The notes: generated by a model from the sequence alone, not told the origin. Shown: positions 249 to 62,141, counted from the first letter of the stretch. The stretch is DNA of 64,000 nt from a virus (IMGVR_UViG_3300045988_076381), one strand, 5' to 3'. Made by a program: numbers and translations.

Positions 249-537
249 CTGTTATCATAAAGACTTTTTATTCTTTATTTCCTGGAGTTTCCTCCTTACT
301 ATATTTAGATTTAATCATCTAAAGGATCGGCGCACGTTTTTATCTCATATTTAAATAAGATATTCCGAACTCATGGGAAGATTATTACTCTCTTAACGTT
401 CACTTCCTGCGCTCTACGATAATTAATTGATATTTAATCATCTCGGCATTAACATAGTTTATATTTAAACCTTAGTCTTTACCGATATTTCGGAATTTAT
501 TACCCTTAAATTACTTTAAGGGAGGCCCGGTATTTTA
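249..537 (-). mobile_element. ORF-less group-I-like intron in the terL Walker A codons
   Basis: About 289 nt with no ORF splits ...LVLKGRGL / SGFSEM.... The 5' exon ends in U and can pair (GGGCU/GGCCU with G.U) about 8-10 nt into the insert. The 3' end (aaaaagtctttatgataacag) matches the shared tail of the other introns here. Internal blocks resemble cgtaacgcgtag / ccaagagtg / gtacgctgaac. Confidence 0.6.
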
Positions 538-1346
538 AGCCCACGTCCCTTTAAAACAAGAGCATCTTTATTTGTTTTCCTACATAATTCCAGATAATGA
601 AAATATTCATATTGTTTTGCTAGAAACATTGGAAAAGATGTAGCACGTTTACCTTTTTTTGTTCCTCCTGTATCTAATATAATCGGAGTTTGCATTCGAT
701 AGAAATTTAAATAAAAATAATTCCATCCAGTTATAGTATACCCATGTGAAGTATAGCCCTCAGTACATCTTCTGAATCTCTCATCCCAGAAATTATTATA
801 TGCAGGACCTTTATAAGCATACATCTCATACTTCCCTGTAGCTTCTTTAGTCATTGCATCTTCTCTGAACCAATCAGGATTAAAATCTAATCCTTGTGTT
901 TCTGTTATAGGTCTATACCCAGTAAGTTCATACGAAAGTTCGGGATCAAAGAAATCTACTGGATCTCCTATTTTAACATCCCAATCAGTAAATGCTTCTG
1001 ATTGTTCTAGAGCTTTAGTCTTTAATTTACTATATAAATAATCATCTATTTCAACTTCATCTCTAGCAATTTTATAGTTAGATAAATCTTTAGATATATA
1101 AGAATTATCATATAATTTCTGCTCTTCCGATTCCTCTTCTTTTAACTTTTCGGGGGTATCATAGGTACTAAGATCTCTTACTATTGTTTCAGTATCTAAA
1201 GAATTTAAAAGTTCCTTTGTAGTAGGTTTCTTTTTTACAACTCTTTTAGGTTTTTCTGGTTCGGAATCTACTTTTTTAGGAATATCTTTCTTTGCCTTTA
1301 CTTTAGATACATTACCTTTTGCTCCATATGTAATTTTCCTAGCCAT
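538..1346 (-). CDS. terL: terminase large subunit-like ATPase, exon 1
   Basis: The ORF 516..1346 ends ...KDALVLKGRGLKIPGLP*. The last residues and the stop codon lie inside the predicted intron. The terminase call rests on the P-loop context and position only. Confidence 0.55.
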
Positions 1347-1348
1347 AT

Positions 1349-1930
1349 TTAATCTCTATATCCAGGTTCATAATCCCCTTTTATTTTAGATTGTTTTTCT
1401 ATATCTCTCTTATATCTATCCTCTGCTGCCCTAACTTCATCCAGAAGAGGGCCTATTCCTTTAGCTTCTGCGATTACGTCTTTAGCTTTATATCTTAATT
1501 GTCCTGTTTCATCATTTACATCACTTAAATCAACTAAGTCATTAAAATATATCGTTAATTTATCTATTACAGTATATACGGATTTAAGTAATTTATATGT
1601 TCTAAAAGAATCTCTTAATTCCTCATATTTCCTACAAGCTGCTCTAAATAAAGGATCAGAAAATTCTTCATCTGTTATAGCTGCTTGCCTTCTTGCTTCT
1701 TTATTCCTATTTTGTTCTGGGAAATCATATATAGGAGATTGCCAATCTAACATTAAATAAATATATTTAAATTCCCTAAACGCTCGTAATTTAAACCTTC
1801 CAGCAGGATCTTCTGGACATTTATTTCTCTCAGACTCCATTAAATCATTAAATTCTTTAAGTAATAGAATCTCCTCCTTATTTAATTCTAAGGATCCGGT
1901 TTGATTATTATAATTAAAAAACTTTACCAT
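1349..1930 (-). CDS. hypothetical protein (immediately upstream of terL)
   Basis: 193-aa ORF with a 2-nt gap to terL. No motif recognised. A small-terminase role would be a guess from position alone. Confidence 0.65.
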   Translation of the reverse strand: MVKFFNYNNQTGSLELNKEEILLLKEFNDLMESERNKCPEDPAGRFKLRAFREFKYIYLMLDWQSPIYDFPEQNRNKEARRQAAITDEEFSDPLFRAACRKYEELRDSFRTYKLLKSVYTVIDKLTIYFNDLVDLSDVNDETGQLRYKAKDVIAEAKGIGPLLDEVRAAEDRYKRDIEKQSKIKGDYEPGYRD

Positions 1931-1997
1931 AGTACATATCCATATTTAGCAAGAAAGAGTGATATAAATAAGGAGATTACTTATATCACTCTTCATA

Positions 1998-2225
1998 TCA
2001 TACCTTTTCTAAATCTTTAGTCGAGAATACTCCTTCGCACATATCTCGATTAGAATTAAACCATACACACCTCATTCCAAGAAATGAAATTTCATTTTCT
2101 GATGAATCTACAACTTTTTCCACTATAAGCATTTTAGGCTTAAATGGCATATCGTGTTTTAATTGAACCAAATCTCCTGGTTTTAGAAATATTTTAGGTT
2201 CTTGATATTTAAGACAATTCTTCAT
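1998..2225 (-). CDS. hypothetical protein
   Basis: 75-aa ORF that overlaps the upstream gene by 17 nt. Confidence 0.55.
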   Translation of the reverse strand: MKNCLKYQEPKIFLKPGDLVQLKHDMPFKPKMLIVEKVVDSSENEISFLGMRCVWFNSNRDMCEGVFSTKDLEKV

Positions 2226-2748
2226 GGTTATTAATTTTCTTAGAACTACAAGCTAATACATTTTGCTCTTGAATAATCCATAAAACAGTATCTCCAGTTC
2301 CGTCAGTATCAATTGGGAGATCTCTTTCACTATTAGCTATATACATTATATCCATTCCCGGGGTAACTGTTTTACAATCGGGACCTACATCTATTACACT
2401 ACCTACAGAAATAAAGCGTTCATTCCAAATATCTATATCTTCTCCAGAACGAGGATCATGTTTAACGTCCCGTTTTAATATAATTCCTCCCTTAGATTTA
2501 GGGTTTTCATAAGGACTAGCAGGATATTTAGAGAAGATTAAATAAGTTCCCATTGGTTTAATTTCCCAATTATTTACTTTATCCTCAAAAAACTCTACTT
2601 GTTTCTGGAGTTCTTCGTCAGAGACATTTTTTATTTTCTCATCGATTCCTATCGATTTAAGAGCTTTGTCAGTATTTAATTCTGACCTAACATTCTCCGG
2701 AACATATAATCCGGAATAATCATTTTTCATTACTTTTCCCATATACAT
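2209..2748 (-). CDS. hypothetical protein (weak GroES/co-chaperonin-like pattern)
   Basis: 179 aa. The segment KGGIILKRD....GSVIDVGP....PGMDIMY loosely resembles the GroES GGI.L...G.V.AVG...GD.V pattern. Confidence 0.4.
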   Translation of the reverse strand: MYMGKVMKNDYSGLYVPENVRSELNTDKALKSIGIDEKIKNVSDEELQKQVEFFEDKVNNWEIKPMGTYLIFSKYPASPYENPKSKGGIILKRDVKHDPRSGEDIDIWNERFISVGSVIDVGPDCKTVTPGMDIMYIANSERDLPIDTDGTGDTVLWIIQEQNVLACSSKKINNHEELS

Positions 2749-2768
2749 TTAAATTTAACATAAAACAT

Positions 2769-3035
2769 TTACCATTTATTTAATACACAATGATTATTTT
2801 TATTTCTTGTCTTTGCCATTAGTCTACATCCACATCCTTTAACCCATCCAACCATTTCTACATTAGATACCTGACCAGTACGAGGATTTATCCATAATTT
2901 AGGATCACAATAGCCTCCATATTTTTCTGAATATAAAGGACATTCTTTACATATCTCCAATCTTTTTAAATATAATTTTTCATTTATATTTAAAAATTCC
3001 TTTGCGTGTCCTGATAATATATCTTTAATACTCAT
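2769..3035 (-). CDS. small Cys-rich (zinc-binding-like) protein
   Basis: 88 aa containing CKEC...C...GCGC...HC. Confidence 0.55.
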   Translation of the reverse strand: MSIKDILSGHAKEFLNINEKLYLKRLEICKECPLYSEKYGGYCDPKLWINPRTGQVSNVEMVGWVKGCGCRLMAKTRNKNNHCVLNKW

Positions 3036-3040
3036 GATAT

Positions 3041-5020: not shown

Positions 5021-5032
5021 AATATATAAATT

Positions 5033-5743: not shown

Positions 5744-5787
5744 TTAACTTATTTTCTATTTTTAATACACACTTATTTTGAATAGTG

Positions 5788-5795
5788 CAAATATA
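5788..5795 (-). promoter_or_regulatory. Bacteroidota-type -7 box TAtaTTTG
   Basis: The reverse complement reads tatatttg. It lies about 45 nt upstream of the 5743 start. Confidence 0.4.
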
Positions 5796-6979: not shown

Positions 6980-6992
6980 ATAATATTTAACT

Positions 6993-7217: not shown

Positions 7218-7231
7218 ATTTTATATATAAA

Positions 7232-13628: not shown

Positions 13629-13701
13629 GGTCCCATAGCGTAAAGGTTAACGCAAAACACTCATAATGTTGAGATTCTAGGTTCAAGTCCTAGTGGGACC
13701 A
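13629..13701 (+). tRNA. trnM: tRNA, anticodon CAT (Met / fMet / Ile2 not distinguished)
   Basis: Hand-folded cloverleaf. Acceptor ggtccca/tgggacc, D stem gcgt/acgc, anticodon loop cTCATAa, T arm ctagg-ttcaagt-cctag. Confidence 0.8.
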
Positions 13702-13824
13702 CGATATTGATTTTCAGGATTTCTGAGGTTTAGAATTTCTGGATTAATGTTTTTTGTAATTTTTTTCATGATCAGTGTTTAACATTAGCAACATTTAATG
13801 AGATGTGATATCTCCTTCCTTATT

Positions 13825-14039: not shown

Positions 14040-14156
14040 CATTAAATATTATATTTAAAAGGTTATATTCGGAAATATATAAGAATGATATCTTTTAAAT
14101 ACTTTAAAATTATATTAATTAAAATAAATAAAAATAATCTTTTAAATATAATAATT

Positions 14157-14426
14157 ATGAAGATCGTGATTAATAGATCCGGAATTGGATTAAATCTATC
14201 TCTACCAGCTATAGAGTATTTAATTAAATATAAAGTAATTAAGTCTCCATTAGATATGAGAAATATTAATAGGAGTAGCCCAAGATTGGTAAGATGTATC
14301 GAAGTATTAGGAGATAACGCATCTTTAGATATGTTAGAAACGATAACAGTTAGAGATGATTTTAAATATAAAATCTCTGAAATCCAAATAGGTAACATCC
14401 ATAGAGAAATTATCCTCATGGAGTAA
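14157..14426 (+). CDS. hypothetical protein embedded in the tRNA cluster
   Basis: ORF 14085..14426. The internal start MKIVINRSGIGLN... at 14157 is more plausible. Confidence 0.45.
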   Translation: MKIVINRSGIGLNLSLPAIEYLIKYKVIKSPLDMRNINRSSPRLVRCIEVLGDNASLDMLETITVRDDFKYKISEIQIGNIHREIILME

Positions 14427-14594: not shown

Positions 14595-14664
14595 TTCTTA
14601 GTAGTTTAACTGGTGAAAATGTCATATACAGTAGGAAATATTAGTTCGAATCCAATCTAAGAAG
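14595..14664 (+). tRNA. aberrant tRNA-like sequence (anticodon arm not foldable)
   Basis: It has a 7-bp acceptor ttcttag/ctaagaa, a D arm gttt/aaat and a T arm attag-ttcgaat-ccaat. I could not form a 5-bp anticodon stem. Confidence 0.3.
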
Positions 14665-15132: not shown

Positions 15133-15207
15133 TCCTCAGTAGCTCAGTTGGCTAGAGCAGCGGACCGTTAATCCGTAGGATCGTAGGTTCAAGTCCTACC
15201 TGAGGAG
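15133..15207 (+). tRNA. trnN: tRNA-Asn (GTT)
   Basis: Acceptor tcctcag/ctgagga, D arm gctc/gagc, anticodon arm gcgga-ccGTTaa-tccgt, T arm gtagg-ttcaagt-cctac. C at position 33 and a 6-nt variable loop are atypical. Confidence 0.7.
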
Positions 15208-15651
15208 CATAATAAAGAGTGTAGTACTAGTGTAGGACTCAACGTAACTTATAGGTTTTGTATTGTACATATAAATTTAGTCCTATTGGGTGTCGTATAA
15301 CCCAACTTAGCTATCGAGTACGGTTAATGATAGCATTTTTATCGAACTTTCATAAAAATAATTATATGAGAAACAAGCATTATTTCCTAATAGATTAATC
15401 TGATAAACCGTATATTGGAGTTGATACACTTATAATTGTCTAATGCAGCTTCGTATTATAAGAAGCAAGTCAATATAAGAAATCAGTTCAGAATAATGTA
15501 TTGTATTCGACGTGGGATTTAAAATTGTATTTATGTGATAGATGTATAGAGAGAAGATTAAGACGGAAAATATCTGGAGAAGATCTAATTCCAAATGATC
15601 CTGTTAATAATTTATATATACAAATATGTCTAGATTTATAATTTATTAATT

Positions 15652-16035
15652 ATGAAAAAGAGAGAACTCCCAAAAGAAGTAAAGAGATGGATTAAATTTT
15701 TTATAAAAACTAATGCTTATTATAATTTTGATTGGGCATTTATGTTAGATGTAGAAAAAGAGAAATTAACTCAATGTATTAAATTTTTTACTGATAACGG
15801 ATGTCATATTAATAATTCCAGAATAATTTCGAAGATGCAATTGGCTGTGAGATTATTAGATATTGCTAGGGATGAGGATTTAGATTTTAAAGGTTATGTA
15901 AATACTAAGAATATAAATAGATTTATTTCTATAGATAAATATGATATTGATATTCTCCCAACTCTTCGAACTGAAAAAGCGTGGTATTTATATAATAAAT
16001 TAAGATATTATTATATGAAAGAATGGTGGGATTAA
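15652..16035 (+). CDS. hypothetical protein
   Basis: 127-aa ORF between tRNA genes. Confidence 0.55.
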   Translation: MKKRELPKEVKRWIKFFIKTNAYYNFDWAFMLDVEKEKLTQCIKFFTDNGCHINNSRIISKMQLAVRLLDIARDEDLDFKGYVNTKNINRFISIDKYDIDILPTLRTEKAWYLYNKLRYYYMKEWWD

Positions 16036-16422: not shown

Positions 16423-16485
16423 TACTTTGTGCATCGGATGCACTCCGAGGGATGTGAGGTTAAGGTTCGACTCCTTACAAAGTGC
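16423..16485 (+). tRNA. truncated tRNA-like element (acceptor + T arm only)
   Basis: Acceptor tactttg/caaagtg and T arm taagg-ttcgact-cctta. It is only about 63 nt. The interior holds the palindrome tgcatc-g-gatgca and has no anticodon arm. Confidence 0.25.
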
Positions 16486-16515
16486 CTAAGTAGTAATTAT
16501 TTAAATATTCATATT

Positions 16516-17415
16516 ATGGAAATTAGAAATGAGAATAAAGTATTTTTTGGAGAGAGTGGTATTACTTCTACTTCTGCTACATATTTATGTAACATTGCTA
16601 GGGAGTTATTAAAAGATATAGAATCATCTTTAAATAATATCTCCTTCATTACTGAGGAAGTAACACTCTTTGGATCTGAGAATAAGATTAGAACTAAAGA
16701 AGGATATAATTTATCCGAACTATCTGATCTAGATTCTAAACTTACTAAAGCTGCACAACTAAAAGCATTTATAGCATGGATGAGTGAAGGAATCAAAGCA
16801 AAAGATGTGGAAAGTGAGAAACTTAGAGAATATACTTTATCTGATTTTATAAAGGATTTCCCTGAATATGTAGTACAGAGGTCTAAAGATTCTACACTAG
16901 ATCCTAATTATGGACTTGGGAAATTAGATGTTTCAGAACGGGTTAAATATCTCTTCTCAGAAGCTTTAACTTCTTCAATTGGGAAATATATTCATAATAA
17001 TGGTGCTTTAAGAAAAGCTTATAGCGAGCTTTTAAATATTGCACATAACAAAGTGAATATAACCACAGAAGCAAAAGATTCTATAGTTGTAGTCACTAAT
17101 AAAATCCCAAGTGTGGATACTAAAAAAGTAGAAAAGATTATGCTTAAATATCAAGATTTACGAAGAGAGAATGAGAAGGTTCTGAACTCTTTGAAATCTA
17201 AGATAAAAAGTTATGATCATGAATATCAAATATATCTTACTCTTGAAGATAAAGCAGCTTCAGAGTCGTATAATGAAAAGATGGAAGTAGTACGTTCAAA
17301 ATATAATGAATATGTATTAAATAAGAGATCGGAAATTGAGAAACTTAAAATCATCATCCCAGATGGTTTAAGGAGTATTTATAACGATCTTCATACCATC
17401 TCAAAAGAAAAATAA
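16516..17415 (+). CDS. hypothetical coiled-coil-rich protein
   Basis: ORF 16429..17415 trimmed to MEIRNENKV..., because its first 29 codons overlap the tRNA-like element. Confidence 0.6.
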   Translation: MEIRNENKVFFGESGITSTSATYLCNIARELLKDIESSLNNISFITEEVTLFGSENKIRTKEGYNLSELSDLDSKLTKAAQLKAFIAWMSEGIKAKDVESEKLREYTLSDFIKDFPEYVVQRSKDSTLDPNYGLGKLDVSERVKYLFSEALTSSIGKYIHNNGALRKAYSELLNIAHNKVNITTEAKDSIVVVTNKIPSVDTKKVEKIMLKYQDLRRENEKVLNSLKSKIKSYDHEYQIYLTLEDKAASESYNEKMEVVRSKYNEYVLNKRSEIEKLKIIIPDGLRSIYNDLHTISKEK

Positions 17416-27008: not shown

Positions 27009-27200
27009 AAACTTTTGTCTGAAAGTATGGTAACATACAGGTGAATAGATCAAAATCGATGAAGTCTAATTTAGATAATATCGAGGTAAGTATGAATTTA
27101 AAGGATTCATACCACTGTAACGCGTAGGTGTTGAAACTATTAATTATTTATAAATTATATTTTTGCAGAAGAGATAATTGTTTTTATCGTGGAAGAATAT

Positions 27201-27208
27201 TAACTTTG
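27201..27208 (+). promoter_or_regulatory. -7 box TAacTTTG inside the intron, upstream of the endonuclease ORF
   Basis: It lies 31 nt upstream of the ATG at 27239. Confidence 0.4.
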
Positions 27209-27238
27209 TATTTATTACATTTTAATATTTAAATTCTT

Positions 27239-28006
27239 ATGGATAAAAACAGAAAACTAGAATTTGAGGGAAAGATATTTCCTACGAATAATTGTGGCGA
27301 GCTAAAAATCATCGAATATAATGGAGCAACTAATGTAGTGGTGGAGTTTATTACTACTAAAACTATACATTCTACCACTATGAATAACATCAAGAAAGGA
27401 TCAGTATCCGATCCTATGTATCCAACAGTATATGGAATAGGATATATGGGTATAGGAGAGTATAAAAGTAGGACTGGGACTAGTCCTCAAACAACTTGCT
27501 ATAAACGATGGAAAGAAATTCTTAATCGATGCTATAATCCTAAATGTTCTGCTTATAAATTTTATGGAGGAAATGGAGCAATTATATGTGAAGAATGGAA
27601 AAATTTCCAAAATTTTGCATCTTGGTGGTATTCTAACTTTCCAAATTGGGAAGGAATTAAAATTGCTATAGATAAAGATTTATTATGTAAGGGAAATAAG
27701 GAATATTGTCCTGAATACTGCTGCTTTTTACCTCAAGAAATAAACGAAGCTCTTACTTTAAGAAAAAAGGAAAGAGGGGATTATCCAGTTGGAGTACGGT
27801 TAAAAGAAGGAAAAATTATTGCTCAAATTAATTACATGGGAAATAAAAAACATTTAGGAACATTTTCCACTGTTGAAGATGCTTTTGCAAAATATAAAAT
27901 AGAAAAGGAAAAGTGTATGAAAGAATATGCTGATAAATACAAAAATATACTTTCGGAGAGAGTGTATCAAGCATTATATAACTACACTATAAATATAGAT
28001 GATTAA
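27239..28006 (+). CDS. intron-encoded homing-endonuclease-like protein with AP2 DNA-binding domain
   Basis: YKRWKEILNRCYNP....YKFYGGNGAIICEEWKNFQNF is common in phage proteins annotated as HNH/AP2. The C-terminus YPVGVRLKEGKIIAQINYMGNKKHLGTFSTVEDAFAKY is AP2-like. Confidence 0.55.
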   Translation: MDKNRKLEFEGKIFPTNNCGELKIIEYNGATNVVVEFITTKTIHSTTMNNIKKGSVSDPMYPTVYGIGYMGIGEYKSRTGTSPQTTCYKRWKEILNRCYNPKCSAYKFYGGNGAIICEEWKNFQNFASWWYSNFPNWEGIKIAIDKDLLCKGNKEYCPEYCCFLPQEINEALTLRKKERGDYPVGVRLKEGKIIAQINYMGNKKHLGTFSTVEDAFAKYKIEKEKCMKEYADKYKNILSERVYQALYNYTINIDD

Positions 28007-28177
28007 TAGAATAAAATATACCCAAGAGTGATCTACTCCTACAGGTAATGCTGAGGATGAAAATGTACGCTGAACCGTCTGATGATTAAATCAGAATATC
28101 TTTATTTACATCTTCAATAAAGTAAGGAGGAGACTCCCGGAAGTAAGAGATAAAAAACTCTTACGATAACAAAATTG

Positions 28178-48080: not shown

Positions 48081-48393
48081 AAATTAAGTGCCCCTATTTA
48101 ATACAAATAAATAGAAAACCATTTGAATTGCTAGGAACTCGCGAAGATTTAGTAACTAAAACATCAGAAGAAATTCTAAATGTAAATGTTAAAAATACTA
48201 AATTATGTGATAATTAGCAGCTAAGCTCCTAAGGATGTAATCTATGGAGAAAGTTCAACGACTATCTCGAAAGAGAGTAGGGCTAAGTAGCTCGAAGCGG
48301 ATGGTATAATATTTTAATATTATAATGAAATAGTCTAATCTTACACGAAAGTGTAAGAGTATATATGGAAACGATATATACGTAATATAATTG
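48081..48393 (+). mobile_element. ORF-less intron (group-I-like, different scaffold) in the helicase Walker A
   Basis: 313 nt with no ORF. The 5' exon ends gggT, which can pair with Gccc 9 nt downstream. The insert ends ...ataattG. Removing it restores ADSG-AGKSS. Confidence 0.65.
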
Positions 48394-49374: not shown

Positions 49375-49461
49375 ATGGCTATAGTATTACCAACAAGTAA
49401 AATACAACCAACAGAAACTGAACCTAGGGTATTAGTTATATTCTCGAAGCCAAAGAGTGGT
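49375..49461 (+). CDS. AAA_24/Sak4-like ATPase, exon 1
   Basis: MAIVLPTSKIQPTETEPRVLVIFSKPKSG. It stops inside the Walker A motif. Confidence 0.6.
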
Positions 49462-49501
49462 AAATTTTATTAAAATATTTGGATAAGTAAAATTTTATGG
49501 A

Positions 49502-49509
49502 TATCTTTG
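49502..49509 (+). promoter_or_regulatory. -7 box TAtcTTTG inside the intron
   Basis: It lies 29 nt upstream of the ATG at 49538. Confidence 0.4.
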
Positions 49510-49537
49510 TAATTATTATTAATACAAATATATAATT

Positions 49538-50761
49538 ATGAAGAATAAAATTTTACAACTAAGTAAGAATTGTAATAGTCTAGAAATAGCTAGAATACTA
49601 TCATTATCTCTAAATGAAGTAGAAAAAGTTTTAATTGATGAATATTTTCAAAAGAAATGGAAGATATCTAAAAAGGATCTTGAAGAATTAGCTGCAAGAA
49701 TCTATAATGAATCTCCAACTCTACTATCAGATGAATTTAATATATCAGAAGTAACATTAAAAAAATATTTAGCAGATTGCAAATTGTTTAATACTAAGAA
49801 AAATGTTATCTATGTTCAAAAATCAGAGGAAGAAATTGAAAAATTAGTTCCGGATATAGTTTTAGATTATAATAACCAATTATCTATTGCACAATTAATG
49901 GTTAAATATAAGTTATCTAAAGATAAAGTTAAAGAAATTTTACATAATAATGAAATTTCAACCGGAAAAGTGACCTGTAATGAACATATATTTGATATAA
50001 TTGATTCGGAAGAAAAGGCATATTGGCTAGGGTTCCTATATGCAGATGGAGCAGTGGGGAGTGCTGATAATACTATTGAATTAGCATTAAAACTTTTGGA
50101 TTGTAAACATCTATATAAATTCAAAACTTTTATAGAAGCCAAAAGGGATATAAAAATAGAAACTAGTAAAGTTAAAAGATGCAGATTCTCTGTAAGTAGT
50201 AAACATTTAAAGTCACAACTTATTAAATTAGGTTGTACTCCTCAAAAGTCCTTAACTCTTAAATTTCCAACTAAAGAACAAGTTCCAGATGACTATATCA
50301 TTCCATTTATAAGAGGGTATTATGATGGAGATGGAATATTAACATATAGTTGTTCTACCACTGGTAGAACAGTTTTAGCTACTGGTATGTTGGGAACTGA
50401 AAATTTTTTAACTGGAGTTTTAAGTAAGTTTAAGTATCCATTACATTCTATTTTGCGTTTAGCTAGTTTGGAAGGATCAAGCGAATGTAAACAAGTAAAT
50501 TGGTCAAAAACTGATTCTGAGGAGTTTTTAAATACTATTTACAAAGATGCTACAATTTTTTTGGATAGAAAATATTTACGATACAAATATTTTAAAGACA
50601 ATGGATTTGCCGTCCAAAAAAGTAATTTTTTGGATAATGACAGAGCAATATCGGAAGAGTCTAAACAATGGATTAATCAGTATTTTAGTATAGATATTGA
50701 TTCCTTATTGCATGATAATTCCGAGATAAATATAGAAAGTAACGATTCTATATCATCGTAA
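49538..50761 (+). CDS. intron-encoded double-motif LAGLIDADG homing endonuclease
   Basis: The motifs are KAYWLGFLYADGAVG and FIRGYYDGDGIL, with N-terminal HTH-like repeats. The stop codon TAA lies within the ribozyme block tcgTAAcgcgtag. Confidence 0.8.
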   Translation: MKNKILQLSKNCNSLEIARILSLSLNEVEKVLIDEYFQKKWKISKKDLEELAARIYNESPTLLSDEFNISEVTLKKYLADCKLFNTKKNVIYVQKSEEEIEKLVPDIVLDYNNQLSIAQLMVKYKLSKDKVKEILHNNEISTGKVTCNEHIFDIIDSEEKAYWLGFLYADGAVGSADNTIELALKLLDCKHLYKFKTFIEAKRDIKIETSKVKRCRFSVSSKHLKSQLIKLGCTPQKSLTLKFPTKEQVPDDYIIPFIRGYYDGDGILTYSCSTTGRTVLATGMLGTENFLTGVLSKFKYPLHSILRLASLEGSSECKQVNWSKTDSEEFLNTIYKDATIFLDRKYLRYKYFKDNGFAVQKSNFLDNDRAISEESKQWINQYFSIDIDSLLHDNSEINIESNDSISS

Positions 50762-50939
50762 CGCGTAGGTGTTGAAACTGTATTTATTTAAATACAGAAT
50801 AAAATATACCCAAGAGTGCTCTGCTCCTATTTAATAGGATGAAAAAGTACGCTAAACTGGATCAGAAATAACTGATCGATAATCAATGAGGGAAACCTCC
50901 AGAACTAAAAGATAAAAAGCTTTTAGGATAATATAATTG

Positions 50940-51731
50940 AAATCAACGGCTTTAAGCCTATTAGATAATAACTTAATACTAGATACAGAAAAGGGAACAG
51001 CGTATATTGAAGCATTAAAAGTAGATATTTCTTCAGTTAAAGATATATTAGAAGTATGTAAACAAGTTAAGGCAGCAGGATATCCTTATAAATATATAAC
51101 TCTAGATACTTTAACTTCTTTAGAGGAAATTCTACAACCGTATGCTTTAAATCTATGGAAGAAATCTAACGCATATAATCCAGAAAAGAATCCAGAACAA
51201 CTAAAAGTAACTGATGTATATAGTTTACCTTTTGGGTTAGGCCAAAAGTATATGAGAGATTCATATTTAGCAGTAATCGGATTATTACAACAAGTATGTA
51301 AAAGAATTATTCTAGTATGTCATTCAAAAGATGCGAAAATAAATGAAAATGAATTAACTATAAAAGATATTGATTTAGCTGGAAAATTATCTGATATTAT
51401 TGCATCTAGATATGATGGAGCTGGATATTTATATAGGGATATAAATGATAATACTATTATTACTTTTGATATAAAACAGCTTGCAGCAGAATGTAAATGT
51501 AGAGTTCCTAGATTAGATGGTAAGAAGTTTGTATTAATCGAGAATCGAAATGGGGAATTAATACCTCATTGGGATCGTATTTATTCTTCCGAACCTTATA
51601 GTGGAGAAGATGTAGTTACTACTCCCCAGATTAATGTTACAGATATTTTAGATAAGGAAGATCAATCTGAAAATTCTAACATATCTGAAGAGGAATCTGA
51701 AGTAGATAAACTTTCAAATATAGAATTATAA
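50940..51731 (+). CDS. AAA_24/Sak4-like ATPase, exon 2
   Basis: KSTALSLLDNNLILDTEKGTAYIE...YITLDTLTSLEE...ILVCHSKD. Confidence 0.6.
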   Translation, partial: KSTALSLLDNNLILDTEKGTAYIEALKVDISSVKDILEVCKQVKAAGYPYKYITLDTLTSLEEILQPYALNLWKKSNAYNPEKNPEQLKVTDVYSLPFGLGQKYMRDSYLAVIGLLQQVCKRIILVCHSKDAKINENELTIKDIDLAGKLSDIIASRYDGAGYLYRDINDNTIITFDIKQLAAECKCRVPRLDGKKFVLIENRNGELIPHWDRIYSSEPYSGEDVVTTPQINVTDILDKEDQSENSNISEEESEVDKLSNIEL

Positions 51732-57097: not shown

Positions 57098-58372
57098 AAG
57101 TAAAATTTTTTTATTGTATTTTATTTGTTTTATTTCATTAAATGTATTTAATTTGTATATTATTAAATTATACAATAAAAATACATTTATGAATAATCTA
57201 AATCAAGCTATTAGTGATTACGAACATTTATTTATAGGAATTTGTGAATTAAGTAAAAAATATAAAATTCCTAATAAAGAAATTAGAAAAGCGTTAGAAG
57301 ATAAAGGATATTATTTAGGAAAAGGAGTATCTCCAAAAAGTGTTGTGCATATTAAACTTGCAGTAGAGGAATATAAAAATATTCTTAATGCTGGTGAAGA
57401 ACCTAATATTCATCAACTGGCATTAAAGTATGATATTTCCGATACGTCTATAAAAGACAATTTAATTAGATTAAATCTTCCTGTTGTAAGATACCCTAAA
57501 AAAATCCATTTTGATGAACATGTCTTTGATGTTATAGATACTGAAGAAAAAGCATATTGGCTAGGATTTTTAACTGCTGATGGGTATATTTATAGTAGAG
57601 ATAATACATTTGGAATTAGTCTAGCTAGTATAGATAAGCATCATGTAGAAAAATATGCCACATTTCTTAAATGTCCTCAACATGTTAAATTTAAGAATAA
57701 CGAATATGCTGGAATATATAGATGTGATTTAGGAAACGCTCATGTAAAGCAAGTATTACAAAAATATGGATTTACTGCTTCTAAATCTTTTGACTGTACC
57801 TTTTTAAAAGACCAGTTTTTTGCAAATTCCGATTTAATAAGACATTATATTAGAGGATATTTTGATGGAGATGGCTGTGTCAGTTATAAAAAAAAGTATA
57901 GAAAAACAATTAATGCCACTATTTATATTCCGATAGTTTCTATAGTTGGAACAGAAGCTTTTTTACAAGAATTAAGAAATAAATCAAATTTAATTTGTCT
58001 TTTTCAGTCACAACAAAATCTATGGAATTTATATGGATCTGGAAAAAAGGCAAAAGATTTTCTTTATTACATTTATAATAACGCTACTATTTATTTAGAT
58101 AGAAAATACAATATTTATAGAAATTATATTGCCCCACACTTAGAGAAATCAAGTGTTCCGCAGTGGCCAATATCGGTGGATACTGAAATGTAAATACCGA
58201 GATAAATTCAGAGATTACGAAAGGCTCTGAATCATCGTAACGCGTAGAAGGTGAATAAATATAATCCTTCCAAGAGTGGCTGCCACCTTAAAGGGTGAAA
58301 ATGTACGCTGAACTATATCGAATAACAAGATATAGAAATAAAGGATAAAAAGCCTTTATGATAACAAAATTG
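57098..58372 (+). mobile_element. group-I-like intron carrying a LAGLIDADG endonuclease ORF
   Basis: It starts after ...acaggT and ends ...gataacaaaattG. It has the core blocks gtaacgcgtag (58237-), ccaagagtg (58270-), gtacgctgaac and gataaaaagcc. Confidence 0.75.
57189..58193 (+). CDS. intron-encoded double-motif LAGLIDADG homing endonuclease
   Basis: KAYWLGFLTADGYIY and YIRGYFDGDGCV. It is clearly a paralog of 49538..50761. The ATG at 57189 is preferred over 57114. Confidence 0.8.
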   Translation: MNNLNQAISDYEHLFIGICELSKKYKIPNKEIRKALEDKGYYLGKGVSPKSVVHIKLAVEEYKNILNAGEEPNIHQLALKYDISDTSIKDNLIRLNLPVVRYPKKIHFDEHVFDVIDTEEKAYWLGFLTADGYIYSRDNTFGISLASIDKHHVEKYATFLKCPQHVKFKNNEYAGIYRCDLGNAHVKQVLQKYGFTASKSFDCTFLKDQFFANSDLIRHYIRGYFDGDGCVSYKKKYRKTINATIYIPIVSIVGTEAFLQELRNKSNLICLFQSQQNLWNLYGSGKKAKDFLYYIYNNATIYLDRKYNIYRNYIAPHLEKSSVPQWPISVDTEM

Positions 58373-58684
58373 AAACCATGGTATTTATTCCCAGGATCTA
58401 TAGTAAAAGAAACAGGAGAATTTGTTGAAGGTTCCTTTCAACATTATCATTACTATCGCCAATTATCTATGTATTTCTGGATGCTCAAGCAATATCTAAC
58501 TTCGGAAGGATATAAATTAAACAAATCTTATTTAAATATAATCTCTGTACAAACTATTCCTAATTATTCTACAGTAGTATTTAGAATCCCAAATAAATGG
58601 TTTGTTAAAGGATTGAAGGAATTTAAAACCTTACTATCATACGCTGCTTATGCTGAATATAATAAAGAAAAAATATTATCATGA
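58373..58684 (+). CDS. PD-(D/E)XK nuclease (second paralog), exon 2
   Basis: KPWYLFPGS...HYYRQLSMYFWMLKQ (QxxxY), in frame with exon 1. Confidence 0.65.
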   Translation, partial: KPWYLFPGSIVKETGEFVEGSFQHYHYYRQLSMYFWMLKQYLTSEGYKLNKSYLNIISVQTIPNYSTVVFRIPNKWFVKGLKEFKTLLSYAAYAEYNKEKILS

Positions 58685-59088
58685 TCCCATATAGAGATGA
58701 TGTTTTAATATCAGAACAAATAGTGCAAGATTTAGTTAATCAGTTTAATAACTTAACTCAAGAAGAAAAAGAAAGATTTTTTAAAAAGGTTTTATGTATT
58801 GGTTCTCTAGCTGTAGACTCTTTAGATGCTGTTACAGCTTTAATATCTATACTTATTGCTGTATATAGAAAATATGCTGAGAAGCATCCGGATGTTTCTA
58901 TAGAGAAGTTTACTAAAGCATTTTTAAAGGATACTATATCTGCCTATGATGATTCATGGATGGAGAATTTTTTACCTTTATGTAAAGCTATCACAGATTG
59001 TAAAAAAGTAAATCTATGTGGAGCAAAGAATCTTGAGGAATGTAAATCTAAGATAAATAATGTATTAGATAAATTACTTCCATTTTAA
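58681..59088 (+). CDS. hypothetical protein
   Basis: 135 aa with an ATGA overlap. Confidence 0.6.
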   Translation: MIPYRDDVLISEQIVQDLVNQFNNLTQEEKERFFKKVLCIGSLAVDSLDAVTALISILIAVYRKYAEKHPDVSIEKFTKAFLKDTISAYDDSWMENFLPLCKAITDCKKVNLCGAKNLEECKSKINNVLDKLLPF

Positions 59089-59185
59089 TATAGGAGTATC
59101 ACTACTTTAGATAAAAACAATACCTCACTAGAAATTATTAATAAATTTTTAGTGATTACTATTTTGATAACATTAAAAATCCCCT

Positions 59186-59193
59186 TATCTTTG
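59186..59193 (+). promoter_or_regulatory. -7 box TAtcTTTG
   Basis: It lies 66 nt upstream of the 59259 start, in a 170-nt intergenic gap. Confidence 0.45.
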
Positions 59194-59258
59194 TACTATC
59201 AAATTGAGGGAAAATATAACAACTTAAATATTTATTAACCTATAAAAATTTTAGAATT

Positions 59259-59837
59259 ATGGCAAAATTGTTTATGACCAATGTAAAAGGATTTAGTAAA
59301 GAAGAAGCAATGTGTGAACTTCCGTTAGAAATTAATCAAAATGCAACTGCGAAATGGCGTGCTGCTGGAGAACCTACTTTTGGTTCAGATGATTTCCGAG
59401 CATTCGCTGAGAACTTCATCAGCAACAAACATATGATTACTGGAGCTGGTGCTTATATTCAGAAAACTTCTCCTGTAGCTGATACTCGTACGAAACCTTA
59501 TAAAATTGTAAACTTCAAGAAAGAAGGTAAGACTAAATGGGAAACCGTATATAATGTTTGTGAAGCAGAATTTAACTTAGATAAAGAAGGTAAATTTAAA
59601 TCAATTGAATCAATTGGTATGCCTGTAGATCAATCTGCTGTTAATAAGGCTGATGCCGAACGTAAAATGCGTGAATTGATTGCTCAAAATAAACGTAATT
59701 ATGTAGTAAGAAAGACTAAAGAAGTTGTTGAGGATGAAGCTTCTAAGAACGGAGAAATCTTGTGTGCAGGTGTTTATACTCCGTCAATTACTACTAAACA
59801 AGGAGAATTTTATGTATTTGGATTAGTTAAAGAATAA
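59259..59837 (+). CDS. hypothetical protein, stand-alone transcription unit
   Basis: 192 aa with its own promoter motif and a strong terminator. Its codon usage is less AT-biased than the neighbours. Confidence 0.65.
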   Translation: MAKLFMTNVKGFSKEEAMCELPLEINQNATAKWRAAGEPTFGSDDFRAFAENFISNKHMITGAGAYIQKTSPVADTRTKPYKIVNFKKEGKTKWETVYNVCEAEFNLDKEGKFKSIESIGMPVDQSAVNKADAERKMRELIAQNKRNYVVRKTKEVVEDEASKNGEILCAGVYTPSITTKQGEFYVFGLVKE

Positions 59838-59881
59838 TCTTAAATATAATAAAATATTTATATAAATATATAATCAATCAG

Positions 59882-59911
59882 AAGGGTGTAATATTAATTT
59901 ATTACACCCTT
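59882..59911 (+). terminator. stem-loop terminator
   Basis: aagggtgtaat-attaattt-attacaccctt followed by tattttt. Confidence 0.75.
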
Positions 59912-59973
59912 TATTTTTAAAAACATAACAGTAATAATTTTAACAGTGTTGCTACTTAAAGCCGTGATTAAAT

Positions 59974-61131
59974 ATGAAACTAGAATTATCTAAATCGATC
60001 TTAGAATCCATCTCAAGTAGAGTAAATAACGATATTTTTACATTTGATGATGTAGAAAGTGAATATAAATTCGATAATATTCAAGAAAAGTTATATAATA
60101 GATTATATAAAAACTATCAGGATTTAACTCCACCACAATTTGATTTAGATACATTTAGATTCACATATAAAATACTTTGTCAAAACTCTGGAGTGAAGAA
60201 GACTCCTCAGAAACAATTAAATAAAGTTAAGGATAGAAAAATTGTATATGATGCTACTACTGATGAATCTTTCGAAAGTAGAATTGTTGGTTCATCTGTA
60301 AGAGATGAAGAAGGTAAAGTAATACATTATGAATTTAGAATCCTTATTAGAGATAAAGAATCTTTTGAAGGTACTCTCACATTATCTGAAATGCAGGATA
60401 TTTATGTTGGATATTCTAATAGAGGATATAATTTATCAGCTAGGAAATTGTCTGAGAAATTCCCACAATATGATTTGATTCAATTAAAGAAGATTTTAAG
60501 AGCATTTCAGATTACTAAAGATTGTTACCCTTTTGCTCCACATATTGCAGAAAGTAAGAGTAAAGAGGAATTAGAAAGGATGTTATTAGATTTAAAATTA
60601 CATTCTGCTTCTAAGAACGCTGATAGAGATGAGATACAAGATAAGAATAAATATATCTTAGAATTAACTAAGGAACTTAACAAGTATAGGGATAAAGAAA
60701 CATTCGTTAAGGATTTACTTAGAATTCCTGTTAAATATAATACTCCTATAACGCCTTTATATTCCGATGCTAATGAATATACTAATACGTTAGTTATATT
60801 CTTATCTGATATGCATATTGGAGCTTATAATCCTAAATATGGATTTATACAATTGGAAGATTATAATAAAGAAGAAATTAGTAGGAGATTAGATAAAGTA
60901 TATAATTTTATTATTAATAAATTATTTGATAATTTAATTATCTGTAATTTAGGAGATAGTGTAGATTCTTATAAAGGTGAAACTGTTAGAGGTCATGAAT
61001 TACCTACTACTATTACTCCAAAAGAACAATCTAAGATGTATTTAGATGTTATGTTAGAGTTCTTTAATAAATTACTTGATTATGTAGAAAATTCTCATAT
61101 TAAATATATTTGTATTGGAGATTCAAATCAT
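59974..61131 (+). CDS. calcineurin-like metallophosphoesterase (Mre11/SbcD-like?), exon 1
   Basis: LVIFLSDMHIG (motif I), ICNLGDSVD (motif II), ICIGDSNH (first part of the GNHD motif). Confidence 0.65.
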
Positions 61132-61433
61132 TGATTGTATTTAAATACAATTTGTGCTAATAATAAGAAATTATTATTCGAAACTAGGTTAACTGCTGGG
61201 ACGCCTGAGATGGTAATCAGCAACCAAGCTACAGATTTAAATTCTGTAGAAGGCTCATCGACTATTCCTGAAATGGAAGTAGAATCAAGCGATTCGAAAT
61301 GCCTAGCCCTTAGCATTATATCTAACACAGATATAGATGAAGGTGAAGATATAGTCAGTTCTCATATTAATAAGGAAGTATGAGGAGGTTTTATTAACCC
61401 GTATAAGAGTAGCGAACTTATATGAACACGAAG
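61132..61433 (+). mobile_element. ORF-less intron (type unresolved) after GDSNH
   Basis: 302 nt, higher G+C, starting after ...aatcaT and ending ...cacgaaG. Removing it restores GDSNH-DGDWG (GNHD). Confidence 0.6.
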
Positions 61434-61571
61434 GACGGTGACTGGGGATGGCTAAATAATATTGTTCTTGCCTCTAAATTAGAGCAATTAAATATAGAAT
61501 CTTATATTTCCGATCTTCCAATTGATAAATTTGATGTTGGAAATAATTCTATACTATTCATGCATGGTGAT
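61434..61571 (+). CDS. metallophosphoesterase, exon 2 (46 codons)
   Basis: DGDWGWLNNIVLASKLEQLNIESYISDLPIDKFDVGNNSILFMHGD. It has no start codon of its own and is in frame with both neighbouring exons. Confidence 0.6.
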
Positions 61572-62141
61572 ATATTTTTCATATTTTTAATATAATTATT
61601 TGGGTTCCATAGAAATAATTTATATTTGTTAAATAATAATATATTTAATAAATAAAGATCATTCTAAAATGCTCCTTTCCTTATTAGGAACAGAAGATTT
61701 TTAAATTCTATACAAGATGTATTTTCTACTAAGTACACTTTGGAATATAATCATAATGATAAGAATTCTAAAACTAGAGTACTAGAAATAGCTTGTAGAC
61801 CAGGGCTTAACATTTTACATAAATTATATTCACACTCAAAAATATATTTAAAAAGAAAATATGAAAGATATTTAGAATATTGCCGTCTATATGAGGAATC
61901 ATATAGAGAATTAGAAACCAATAACGGGGAAGGCTGTGATGTCAATCCCGTGATAAGTACAGAAAGTAAAGAGTCTGTGCCATCGTAACGCGTAGAACTT
62001 GAACCTCGAAAGAGAATAAAATAGTTCCAAGAGTGGTTTCTACCCCAACACTTTTATAAGTAGTGGGTAAAAAGGTACGCTGGACTATAGCAAAAAGAAG
62101 CTATAGAAGTTAGGATAAAAAGCCTAACGATAACAAAATCG
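61572..62141 (+). mobile_element. group-I-like intron (shared scaffold) with a decayed LAGLIDADG ORF
   Basis: It ends ...gataacaaaatcG. It has the core blocks gtaacgcgtag (61985-), ccaagagtg (62028-), gtacgctggac and gataaaaagcc. It follows the HGD motif. Confidence 0.7.
61740..61988 (+). pseudogene. C-terminal remnant of a LAGLIDADG endonuclease gene
   Basis: LHKLYSHSKIYLKRKYERYLEY parallels IYKDATIFLDRKYLRYKYF and IYNNATIYLDRKYNIYRNY of the intact copies. Both LAGLIDADG motifs are missing. The stop is again in tcgTAAcgcgtag. Confidence 0.6.

What the first reader, a model, noticed from the sequence alone, without database searches (positions are those of the whole stretch)
249..62141. Seven intron-like interruptions of essential genes in 64 kb, five sharing one ribozyme scaffold
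Seven insertions split conserved catalytic motifs and restore both frame and motif when removed. They lie in terL (249-537), ferritin (27009-28177), helicase (48081-48393), AAA ATPase (49462-50939), a PD-(D/E)XK nuclease (57098-58372) and a metallophosphoesterase (61132-61433 and 61572-62141). Every 5' exon ends in U, and every insert ends in G. Four inserts contain the identical 11-mer gtaacgcgtag (27117, 50758, 58237, 61985), plus ccaagagtg, gtacgctNaac and a gataaaaagcNNNNNgataacaaaatNG tail. The terL insert carries diverged versions of these. This intron density is very high for a phage segment. It implies an actively spreading intron family.
Basis: partly seen in the sequence, partly recalled or inferred. 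Interest (0 to 1): 0.8.

Follow-up and report, generated by a model that had tools for sequence, protein, structure and literature searches.

The report
Seven group I introns, crAss-like phage
Seven essential genes in this 64-kb piece of a gut crAss-like phage are each interrupted by a self-splicing group I intron; five of them belong to one widespread phage intron family that the standard Rfam model does not detect, but dense intron infestation of such phages has already been published.

Summary
All seven inserts exist, each follows a U and ends in G, and removing each restores one reading frame and one protein domain. Two coordinates need a 3-nt correction. The terL intron is 246-537 on the minus strand (not 249-537). 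The second phosphoesterase intron is 61569-62141 (not 61572-62141).

Two inserts (helicase, phosphoesterase-1) match Rfam RF00028 at 83 and 67 bits. The other five get no RF00028 hit even at E<=10. They do share a scaffold with full group I topology, supported by strong covariation in two alignments (93-95% of cells paired versus 28-44% in slid controls). A covariance model built here finds exactly these five copies in the window.

Close relatives (88-100% identical proteins) carry intron-less alleles joined exactly at the predicted junctions at all seven sites. They also carry longer and shorter intron versions, with or without LAGLIDADG, HNH-type or GIY-YIG genes.

The window comes from a crAss-like phage. 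That group is already reported to have up to 14 introns per genome, so the density is not new. The five copies are only 75-83% identical, so they are not a recent burst within this genome. The scaffold is common in phages (79 GenBank records, mostly unannotated). It is possibly the IA1 type.

Verdict: correct, well supported, a new member of a known kind.

The parts
246..537 (-). terL intron (292 nt, no ORF), R1-family group I intron. P1 is exon GGGCU(542-538) paired with GGCCU(527-523). P10 is ACCG(531-528) paired with exon-2 CGGU. P2 is 522-503 with a GUAA loop. P7 is GCGCA/UGCGC.
   Evidence: R1 hit of 98 bits, E 2.6e-27, not in the training set. The revised 3' splice site G246 gives RGLGFSE, 100% identical to intron-less relatives. 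No RF00028 hit.
1..1346 (-). terL exons: exon 1 is 538-1346 and exon 2 is 1-245. The gene runs off the window start.
   Evidence: phrog_6681 terminase large subunit spans the junction. tblastn gives a single piece in MT835470.1.
27009..28177 (+). Ferritin intron (1169 nt), R1 family. IGS GUCUG is 27017-27021, P10 partner CUUUU is 27012-27016, P2 is 27025-27038 with a GUAA loop. The ORF sits in the P7.1 loop.
   Evidence: R1 hits in two halves: 27052-27155 (52.6 bits) and 28002-28177 (66.5 bits). Pfam Ferritin 18-146 spans the junction at aa 137. Intron-less alleles in relatives join at ...cagat|ggaagaa. An ORF-less 320-nt version exists in relatives (L013).
27239..28006 (+). Intron ORF of 255 aa, in a PHROG family annotated as HNH endonuclease, with an AP2-like C-terminal region.
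   Evidence: phrog_953 at 1.2e-60. No Pfam hit, so the catalytic motif is not verified.
48081..48393 (+). Helicase (DnaB-like) intron, 313 nt, a canonical group I intron that splits the Walker A motif (DSG|AGKS).
   Evidence: RF00028 at 83.1 bits, E 6.7e-22, full model. Eleven relatives are intron-less, most with 99-100% identical flanks; 9 carry the 313-nt intron and 2 carry a 1194-nt intron.
48116..48217 (+). Remnant (last 33 codons plus stop) of a GIY-YIG homing endonuclease gene inside P5 of the helicase intron.
   Evidence: The translation KPFELLGTREDLVTKTSEEILNVNVKNTKLCDN* is identical to the C-terminus of the ORF in the 1194-nt variant (L135), which hits Pfam GIY-YIG.
49462..50939 (+). 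AAA_24 ATPase intron (1478 nt), R1 family, splitting the Walker A motif (KSG|KST). P1 is exon GGU plus intron AAAU paired with AUUU-GCC (50605-50611). P2 is 50614-50633 with a GUAA loop. The core is 50636-50939.
   Evidence: R1 at 127.8 bits, E 4.5e-36, not in the training set. Pfam AAA_24 18-199 spans the junction at aa 29. 21 relatives are intron-less and 2 carry the 1478-nt intron.
49538..50761 (+). Double-motif LAGLIDADG homing endonuclease ORF (407 aa) in the P1 loop. It reads through IGS, P2, P3, P4, P5 and P6, and stops at the UAA of the conserved GUAACGCG (J6/7).
   Evidence: phrog_4645 endonuclease at 4e-52. 33-38% identity to the Pfam-positive LAGLIDADG ORFs. Stop-codon context.
57098..58372 (+). 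PD-(D/E)XK nuclease intron (1275 nt), R1 family. The core is 58158-58372.
   Evidence: R1 at 228 bits (in the training set). DUF3799 238-354 spans the junction at aa 265. Uninterrupted homologs exist in GenBank. About 19 relatives are intron-less and 5 carry the intron.
57189..58193 (+). LAGLIDADG homing endonuclease ORF (334 aa from the ATG). It overlaps IGS, P2, P3 and P4, and stops inside P5.
   Evidence: Pfam LAGLIDADG_3 at 9.6e-11. Stop context.
61132..61433 (+). Metallophosphoesterase intron 1 (302 nt, no ORF), a canonical group I intron splitting GDSNH|DGD.
   Evidence: RF00028 at 67 bits, E 1.9e-15, full model. 12 close relatives are intron-less and 8 carry a 302-304-nt intron. The junction is exact.
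61569..62141 (+). Metallophosphoesterase intron 2 (573 nt), R1 family, with a revised 5' boundary. P1 is exon GGU plus intron GAUAU paired with AUAUU-GCC. The core is 61909-62141.
   Evidence: R1 at 181 bits (in the training set). Intron-less alleles read LHG|KDS. Relatives carry versions of ~1310 nt (full endonuclease gene) or 312 nt (no ORF).
61740..61988 (+). Remnant (last 82 codons) of the LAGLIDADG gene of intron MPE-2. It still covers IGS through P6 and stops in J6/7.
   Evidence: 100% identical to residues 273-354 of the full-length ORF in L151, which hits Pfam LAGLIDADG_1.

Best explanation
The window, from a crAss-like gut phage, holds seven self-splicing group I introns in six essential genes: terL, ferritin, DnaB-like helicase, AAA_24 ATPase, PD-(D/E)XK nuclease, and two in a metallophosphoesterase/exonuclease.

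After transcription each intron RNA folds into the group I core. The last exon U pairs with a G of the internal guide sequence (P1). An external guanosine bound in P7 attacks that site. The terminal intron G then replaces it, and the exons are ligated with the help of P10. This restores motifs that the DNA splits, such as Walker A G|KST and GDSNH|D.

Two introns (helicase, MPE-1) are the classical phage type recognised by RF00028. Five belong to a second lineage with a different P7 (GCGUA/UACGC and two complementary variants), a single P7.1 arm, and invariant CCAAGAGUG and GAUAAAAAGC elements.

At the DNA level the introns move by homing, driven by intron-encoded endonucleases: LAGLIDADG in the P1 loop, an HNH-type ORF in the P7.1 loop, and GIY-YIG in P5. 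The population shows every stage of the gain, endonuclease-decay and loss cycle.

Shown here: inserts, frames, junctions, RNA covariation, intron-less alleles, endonuclease families. Inferred: actual splicing chemistry and endonuclease activity.
For: - RF00028 hits: 83.1 bits and 67 bits.
- Family structure on 28 diverse sequences: 95.3% of cells paired versus 28-43% when slid; 34 of 48 pairs have changes on both sides; 0 of 500 shuffles reach the observed values; the P3 pseudoknot helix is 99.4% paired with 5 of 6 compensatory pairs.
- On 36 distinct sequences retrieved by protein similarity only: 93.6% paired; P7 is 99% paired, with 2 of 5 pairs compensatory.
- Model R1 finds exactly the five inserts.
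- Pfam or PHROG domains span every junction.
- Uninterrupted homologs exist in GenBank.
- Intron-less alleles in 88-100% identical relatives join exactly at the junctions at all seven sites.
- The U|...G rule holds at all seven.
- P1 and P10 pairings can be read directly.
- Endonuclease ORFs.
- The same scaffold lies between halves of split genes in cultured phages.
- Metatranscriptomes confirmed splicing of predicted group I introns in other gut phages (PMC12880540).
Against: - There are no RNA data for this phage, so splicing is inferred.
- Five of the seven fail the curated group I model RF00028 even at E<=10.
- P1 for the nuclease intron is short (GGU/GCC plus 2 bp), and P10 for the nuclease and MPE-2 introns is weak (2 bp).
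- The ferritin-intron ORF has no recognisable HNH catalytic motif in Pfam.
- Alignment A2 was fitted to the model, which favours the structure. A1 was selected with three of the conserved motifs, so those columns carry no information there.
Confidence: 0.9

Rival explanations
1. The genes are truly split by free-standing homing endonuclease cassettes (intron-less homing, as in some T4-like phages). The halves would be translated separately and assemble as subunits, and the conserved DNA would be endonuclease-associated, not a ribozyme.
For: Three inserts carry intact endonuclease ORFs. Five inserts fail RF00028.
Against: The four inserts with no ORF, or only a remnant, still keep the full conserved scaffold. 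Helices covary while their sequences change, which is an RNA-level constraint. The splits fall inside Walker A loops and metal-binding motifs, and the downstream halves mostly begin without their own start codon at the junction. Junctions follow the U|...G rule and have P1 and P10 pairing.
Confidence: 0.04
2. The five-member scaffold is a self-splicing or self-cleaving RNA of a class other than group I, for example a new ribozyme class that only resembles group I.
For: No RF00028 hit at E<=10. It has an unusual P7 sequence and invariant elements not found in the classical P/Q/R/S consensus.
Against: The order and nesting of helices is exactly that of group I: P1-P2-P3-P4-P5-P6-P7-P7.1-P3'-P8-P7'-P9, with the P3/P7 pseudoknot. 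It has A-rich J3/4 and J4/5, a J8/7 of the usual length, an unpaired nucleotide 5' of P7, a U.G pair at the 5' splice site, a terminal G, and P10. A P7.1 arm is the hallmark of subgroup IA (PMC3984707).
Confidence: 0.04
3. The inserts are dead relics. The ribozymes no longer splice, and the interrupted genes are pseudogenes in this particular genome.
For: Four introns have lost their endonuclease gene. P1 and P10 of the nuclease and MPE-2 introns are short.
Against: The exons are intact, in frame, and 88-100% identical at the protein level to relatives. The same intron-containing alleles recur in many independent contigs from several samples. The ribozyme cores are fully conserved with compensatory changes. 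Six essential replication and packaging genes could not all be dead in a circulating phage.
Confidence: 0.02

Closest known systems
Group I introns of crAss-like phages, Delta and Zeta groups (Yutin et al. 2021, PMC7886860)
   Same: Same phage assemblage: the window's TerL is closest to crAss-like phages, and the closest IMG/VR relatives are 155-167 kb, within the 145-192 kb reported for the intron-rich group. Same phenomenon: many introns in core genes, up to 14 per genome.
   Different: That work found introns through endonuclease protein domains and did not describe the RNAs. Here four of the seven introns have no intact endonuclease gene, and the ribozyme scaffolds are defined by structure.
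Group I introns of Jug (jumbo gut) phages (PMC12880540)
   Same: Gut Bacteroidota phages with about 18.5 introns per genome splitting terL, nrdD and polymerase genes. Splicing was confirmed for 37 of 76 by metatranscriptomes.
   Different: A different phage clade. Those introns were found with subtype covariance models that I could not run, and I do not know whether they include the R1 family.
Classical phage IA2 introns (T4 td/nrdB/nrdD, SPO1, Twort orf142; recalled from established literature, and PMC11835236 states that over 50% of viral group I introns are IA2)
   Same: The helicase and MPE-1 introns carry the classical P/Q/R/S consensus and match RF00028. All share the U.G, terminal G, P7.1 region and endonuclease-in-loop design.
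   Different: The five-member family differs in P7 sequence, has one P7.1 arm and no P7.2, has invariant CCAAGAGUG and GAUAAAAAGC elements, and is not detected by RF00028.
IA1 introns of Bacillus cereus-group prophages, TMP-IVS3 and term-IVS1 (Tourasse & Kolsto 2008, PMC2504315)
   Same: Phage tape-measure and large-terminase genes are their hosts. Homologs were reported in Staphylococcus and Lactobacillus phages. Related cores carry unrelated endonucleases (GIY-YIG versus HNH), and there are endonuclease remnants. My BLAST hits for the scaffold fall in the same kinds of genes and phages.
   Different: The IA1 assignment of the R1 family is therefore a lead, not a result.

Membership tests
Group I intron (Rfam RF00028) | Score at or above the curated gathering score (50 bits) of the covariance model | tested here: met
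   Helicase intron 83.1 bits; MPE-1 intron 67 bits. This applies to these two introns only.
Group I intron (Rfam RF00028) | The same criterion, applied to the five-member R1 family | tested here: not met
   No RF00028 match at E<=10 for the terL insert scanned alone, the MPE-2 core scanned alone, or in the 15-kb and 1.5-kb scans.
Group I intron (structural definition) | Core helices P3-P4-P5-P6-P7-P3'-P8-P7' with the P3/P7 pseudoknot, supported by covariation | tested here: met
   A1: 95.3% paired versus 28-43% slid; P3 has 5 of 6 compensatory pairs. A2, retrieved independently of the RNA: 93.6% paired; P7 has 2 of 5 compensatory pairs and three complementary versions.
Group I intron (structural definition) | 5' splice site after a U that forms a U.G pair with the internal guide sequence (P1); the intron ends in G; P10 pairs with the 3' exon | tested here: met
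   U|...G holds at all seven. P1: terL GGGCU/GGCCU; ferritin CAGAU/GUCUG; AAA, nuclease and MPE-2 GGU/GCC with an extension into the intron. P10: terL CGGU/ACCG; ferritin GGAAG/CUUUU; AAA AAAU/AUUU. These are read. P10 is weak for nuclease and MPE-2.
Group I intron (structural definition) | Guanosine-binding site in P7 (G-C pair next to an unpaired nucleotide) | tested here: inconclusive
   P7 begins with an invariant G-C pair preceded by the unpaired AAC of GUAAC|GCGUA. The layout fits, but binding cannot be shown by sequence.
Group I intron (functional definition) | Self-splicing by two transesterifications started by exogenous guanosine | not testable with these tools
   This needs in vitro splicing or RNA-seq.
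Group I intron (genetic definition) | Precise removal restores an uninterrupted gene; intron-less alleles exist | tested here: met
   Domains span the junctions. Intron-less alleles join exactly at all seven junctions.
Subgroup IA (IA1 versus IA2) | Extra pairing P7.1 (and P7.1a or P7.2) between P7 and P3' | tested here: met
   A P7.1 arm is present: 100% paired, 4 of 5 pairs compensatory. No separate P7.2 is seen. The choice between IA1 and IA2 rests on my memory of Michel & Westhof criteria.
Subgroup IA (IA1 versus IA2) | Best match to a GISSD / Selles-Vidal subtype covariance model | not testable with these tools
   The subtype models (PMC11835236) are not available here.
Homing-endonuclease-driven mobile intron | An intron-encoded endonuclease of a homing family, and presence/absence polymorphism at the same site | tested here: met
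   LAGLIDADG (Pfam), GIY-YIG in the long helicase-intron variant, PHROG HNH. Polymorphism at all seven sites. Cleavage activity was not tested.
Intein | An in-frame insertion translated with the host protein, with a Hint domain | tested here: not met
   The upstream reading frames stop within 0-8 codons after five of the junctions. Four of the seven insert lengths are not multiples of 3. No Hint or intein domain was found in Pfam.
Group II intron | Domain V/VI RNA, GUGYG...AY ends, reverse-transcriptase ORF | tested here: not met
   No group II family was found in any Rfam scan. The ends are U|...G, and the ORFs are endonucleases.

The most novel reading that the evidence does not exclude
The five-copy scaffold may represent a large, phage-borne subclass of group I introns. 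It occurs in crAss-like, Lak, Staphylococcus, Clostridium, Bacillus and cyanobacterial phages and in gut prophages. The curated Rfam model, and databases seeded from it, would not detect this subclass, so the intron load of gut phage genomes would be systematically under-counted, especially for copies without an endonuclease gene. In this subclass a LAGLIDADG gene sits in the P1 loop. Its last ~50 codons are also the guide sequence and helices P2-P6 of the ribozyme, and its stop codon is the conserved UAA of J6/7. That is an unusually long stretch under dual protein and RNA constraint.
Probability: 0.35. Interest if true: 0.55.

Novelty: new member of a known kind. Interest (0 to 1): 0.4.

Why it matters
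For annotation: six core genes of this phage, and of many relatives, appear as fragments unless the introns are removed. The usual tool does not help here. A whole-window Rfam scan at gathering threshold returned none of the seven introns, and five stay invisible even in short scans. The 216-position model built here, or the motif ACGCGTAG...CCAAGAGTG...GTACGCT, recovers them and finds the same element unannotated in 79 GenBank phage records.

For biology: a single phage population shows every stage of the homing cycle at seven sites: empty site, intron with endonuclease, endonuclease remnant, and ORF-less intron. Three endonuclease families sit on two ribozyme lineages. This makes it a convenient natural system for studying intron turnover.

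It does not change what is known about how group I introns work. The high density in crAss-like phages is already published.

Tried and rejected
- The whole-window Rfam scan at gathering threshold gave only tRNAs. This was misleading: the speed filters hid two true RF00028 introns, which were recovered in shorter scans.
- Megablast of 8 kb of the window against GenBank phages gave no match.
- The 16-base pattern scan of viral contigs returned many chance hits. About 46 of 122 lacked the other motifs and were discarded.
- I first looked for the guide sequence of the LAGLIDADG-type introns near their 5' ends and found none. It lies after the ORF, just upstream of P2. This was confirmed by the ORF-less relatives L029 and L165, where P1 is a compact hairpin.
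- The covariance model aligned the terL 3' end to G244. I rejected this because it breaks the reading frame. G246 fits the frame, the homologs and P10.
- Intein, group II intron and split-gene readings were considered and rejected (see rivals and membership tests).
- A recent intragenomic burst was rejected because of the 75-83% core identity and 33-38% endonuclease identity.
- I tried to pin the family to subgroup IA1 through the literature. This produced only a plausible lead.

Full report

Yes. If read unspliced, the upstream frames stop within 0-8 codons.

The spliced products each give a single domain match that spans the junction:
- Ferritin 18-146, junction at aa 137.
- DnaB_C 21-316, junction at aa 49.
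- AAA_24 18-199, junction at aa 29.
- PDDEXK-like DUF3799 238-354, junction at aa 265 (all).
- phrog_284 exonuclease 195-508, covering both phosphoesterase junctions.
- phrog_6681 terminase large subunit.

The splits fall inside catalytic motifs: DSG|AGKS, KSG|KST and GDSNH|DGD. The 11-mer GTAACGCGTAG occurs exactly four times, against 0.04 expected. All seven 5' exons end in U and all seven inserts end in G. Together the inserts make up 5402 nt, or 8.4% of the window.

**2. Two boundary corrections**

Alignment to uninterrupted homologs shows a one-residue surplus exactly at two junctions. One is terL: RGLSGFSE versus RGV-GFSE. The other is the second phosphoesterase intron: MHGDKDS versus VHG-KDS.

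Moving the terL 3' splice site to G246 gives RGLGFSE. This is 100% identical over 231 aa, in exactly 693 nt, to intron-less relatives. It also creates a P10 pairing, ACCG with exon-2 CGGU, directly 5' of the guide sequence.

Moving the MPE-2 5' splice site to just after 61568 (catGGU|) gives MHGKDS. This matches the intron-less alleles, which read LHG|KDS. It also creates an 8-bp P1: GGU|GAUAU paired with AUAUU-GCC.

The corrected introns are 246-537 (minus strand, 292 nt) and 61569-62141 (573 nt).

**3. What are they? Two classical introns**

A whole-window Rfam scan at gathering threshold returned only tRNAs. That was a filter artefact. In a 15-kb scan the first phosphoesterase insert matches RF00028 over the full model at 67 bits. 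Scanned alone, the helicase insert scores 83.1 bits, E 7e-22. Both carry the classical P/Q/R/S consensus.

**4. Five introns of a second lineage**

The terL, ferritin, AAA, nuclease and MPE-2 inserts give no RF00028 match even at E<=10, whether scanned in kilobase stretches or alone.

I retrieved relatives with the pattern CCAAGAGTG-N20-45-GTACGCT from viral contigs. About 76 of the 122 matches also carry the other conserved elements. I aligned 28 diverse cores (A1).

A group I structure was projected on this alignment: P3, P4, P5, P6, P7, P7.1, P3', P8, P7', P9 and a last hairpin. It pairs in 95.3% of cells, against 28-43% when the partners are slid by 1-3 columns. 34 of 48 pairs show changes on both sides, and no shuffle out of 500 reaches the observed values. 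The pseudoknot helix P3 is 99.4% paired, with compensatory changes at 5 of 6 pairs.

In A1, P7 was invariant because the retrieval pattern contained it. To remove that bias, I built a covariance model (R1: 216 positions, 42 pairs) and searched 99 loci that had been fetched by protein similarity only. There P7 occurs in three perfectly complementary versions: GCGUA/UACGC, GCAUA/UAUGC and GCGCA/UGCGC. P7 is 99% paired with two compensatory pairs, and the whole structure is 93.6% paired.

In the window, R1 finds exactly the five inserts. AAA scores 127.8 bits and terL 98 bits, and neither was in the training set. Ferritin appears as two halves separated by its ORF. Nothing else scores above 7.5 bits. 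Rfam scans of the rest of the window found no further RF00028 match.

The layout around the core also fits group I:
- An A-rich J3/4 and J4/5.
- An unpaired AAC before P7.
- A 7-8-nt J8/7.
- P2 hairpins, often closed by a GUAA loop.
- A U.G pair at the splice site.
- A terminal G.

The single P7.1 arm between P7 and P3' is the mark of subgroup IA (PMC3984707).

**5. Where the endonuclease genes sit**

In the AAA, nuclease and MPE-2 introns the guide sequence (GCC, pairing with exon GGU) and P2 lie directly upstream of P3, after the ORF. The LAGLIDADG gene therefore occupies the P1 loop. ORF-less relatives (L029, L165) show the same P1 as a compact hairpin.

The ORF reads on through the guide sequence, P2, P3, P4 and P5. 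In the AAA and MPE-2 introns it also reads through P6 and stops at the UAA inside the conserved GUAACGCG. That is roughly 50 codons under both protein and RNA constraint. Overlap between endonuclease ORFs and the intron core is a known arrangement (PMC3984707, Figure 2b).

The ferritin intron carries a PHROG 'HNH endonuclease' ORF in the P7.1 loop.

The window's MPE-2 ORF is 100% identical to the last 82 residues of a 354-aa LAGLIDADG gene found in relatives. The window's helicase intron keeps the last 33 codons of a GIY-YIG gene that is intact in a 1194-nt variant. So three introns have intact endonuclease genes, two have remnants, and two have none.

**6. Mobility**

Contigs from relatives with 88-100% identical proteins show every state at every site.

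| Site | Intron-less | With intron (size in nt) |
|---|---|---|
| Helicase | 11 | 9 (313), 2 (1194) |
| AAA | 21 | 2 (1478) |
| Nuclease | ~19 | 5 (1275) |
| MPE-1 | 12 | 8 (302-304) |
| MPE-2 | 4 | 15 (~1310), 1 (312); window 573 |
| Ferritin | 3 | 3 (320), 10 (725-746), 2 (1167-1171) |
| terL | 11 | 5 (288-295), 2 (1048) |

The intron-less alleles join the exons exactly at the predicted junctions. This is the strongest non-experimental support for the splice sites, and it shows ongoing gain and loss.

The five window copies are, however, only 75-83% identical to each other, and their endonucleases only 33-38%. They are old, separately maintained lineages, not a recent burst inside this genome.

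**7. Context and novelty**

The window's TerL is closest to crAss-like phages. Its nearest IMG/VR relatives are contigs of 155-167 kb. Yutin et al. (PMC7886860) described crAss-like groups of 145-192 kb with 'unprecedented density' of group I introns, up to 14 per genome, identified through endonuclease domains. Jug phages average 18.5 introns per genome, and 37 of 76 were confirmed by metatranscriptomes (PMC12880540). Seven introns in 64 kb is therefore in line with published cases. Relatives also carry up to three R1 introns in terL alone, partly beyond the window's edge.

The R1 scaffold itself is common:
- 79 GenBank phage records: Staphylococcus, Clostridium, crAss-like, Lak, Bacillus and a cyanophage, mostly unannotated.
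- Positions between the halves of split helicase and terL genes in cultured phages.
- 34 bacterial genome or MAG contigs.

It may be the IA1 type described in Bacillus prophage tape-measure and terminase genes (PMC2504315). I could not test that.

I therefore file the finding as a new member of a known kind. There is one open point of moderate interest: a widespread phage intron lineage that the curated Rfam model does not detect.

**8. Rivals**

- Truly split genes with free-standing endonucleases. This does not explain covarying helices in ORF-less inserts, nor splits inside Walker A loops.
- Inteins. Excluded by stop codons and by insert lengths that are not multiples of three.
- Group II introns. 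Excluded by the ends, the ORFs and the absence of any Rfam match.
- A non-group-I ribozyme class. Unlikely, because every topological hallmark of group I is present.
- Dead relics. Contradicted by intact exons, conserved cores, and recurrence of the same alleles in many contigs.

What remains inferred is the splicing chemistry itself.

Noticed in passing
window 14595-14664 (+): Rfam reports a seventh tRNA-like match (37.7 bits) in the tRNA cluster that ARAGORN does not list. Its identity and anticodon were not examined.
   Followed up: no
window 14063-14419, 15652-16035, 16429-17415: ORFs are interspersed among the tRNA genes (13.6-17.8 kb). They could be further mobile-element genes but were not analysed.
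   Followed up: no
L199 3945-4161 and 5221-5448; L209 3487-3743, 4237-4453, 5513-5740; L200 6028-6221: In close relatives the terL gene carries up to three R1-family introns, two of them in the part of terL that lies beyond the start of the window. The real intron count of this genome is therefore probably above seven.
   Followed up: partly
window 538-545 / 239-245 (terL) and 49450-49461 / 50940-50951 (AAA), compared with L216 and L127: Intron-plus and intron-minus alleles differ by clusters of synonymous changes right at the insertion site. Examples: cgtgggct|cggtttc versus cgaggatt|aggattt, and agagtggt|aaatcaacg versus aatctggg|aaatctaca. At the helicase site, by contrast, several intron-less alleles are 100% identical over +-150 nt. 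This is compatible with co-conversion, endonuclease-site immunity, or adaptation to P1 and P10.
   Followed up: partly
whole window (method): The Rfam gathering-threshold scan of the whole 64 kb missed two introns that score 83 and 67 bits in short scans. The speed filters, not the model, were responsible. AT-rich phage DNA with large loop insertions seems prone to this.
   Followed up: yes
window 58340-58359, 62111-62127, 50905-50927, 28143-28163, 257-279(-): The last hairpin before the 3' splice site has a covarying stem and an almost invariant loop, GAUAAAAAGC. The stretch CCAAGAGUG between P7.1 and P3' is also invariant. Neither has an assigned role; tertiary contacts are possible.
   Followed up: no
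window 13629-13702 and 15133-15208 (-): Sub-threshold matches to Rfam 'Plastid-ycf2 5'UTR' lie antisense to two tRNA genes. These are almost certainly an artefact of tRNA-like structure.
   Followed up: no
GenBank MK250015-18 (Prevotella phage Lak-A1, ~453.5 kb) and PP438436 (Leptolyngbya phage): The R1 scaffold also matches a Lak megaphage and a cyanophage at 67-70% identity over about 200 nt. The family is therefore not confined to crAss-like or Firmicutes phages.
   Followed up: no
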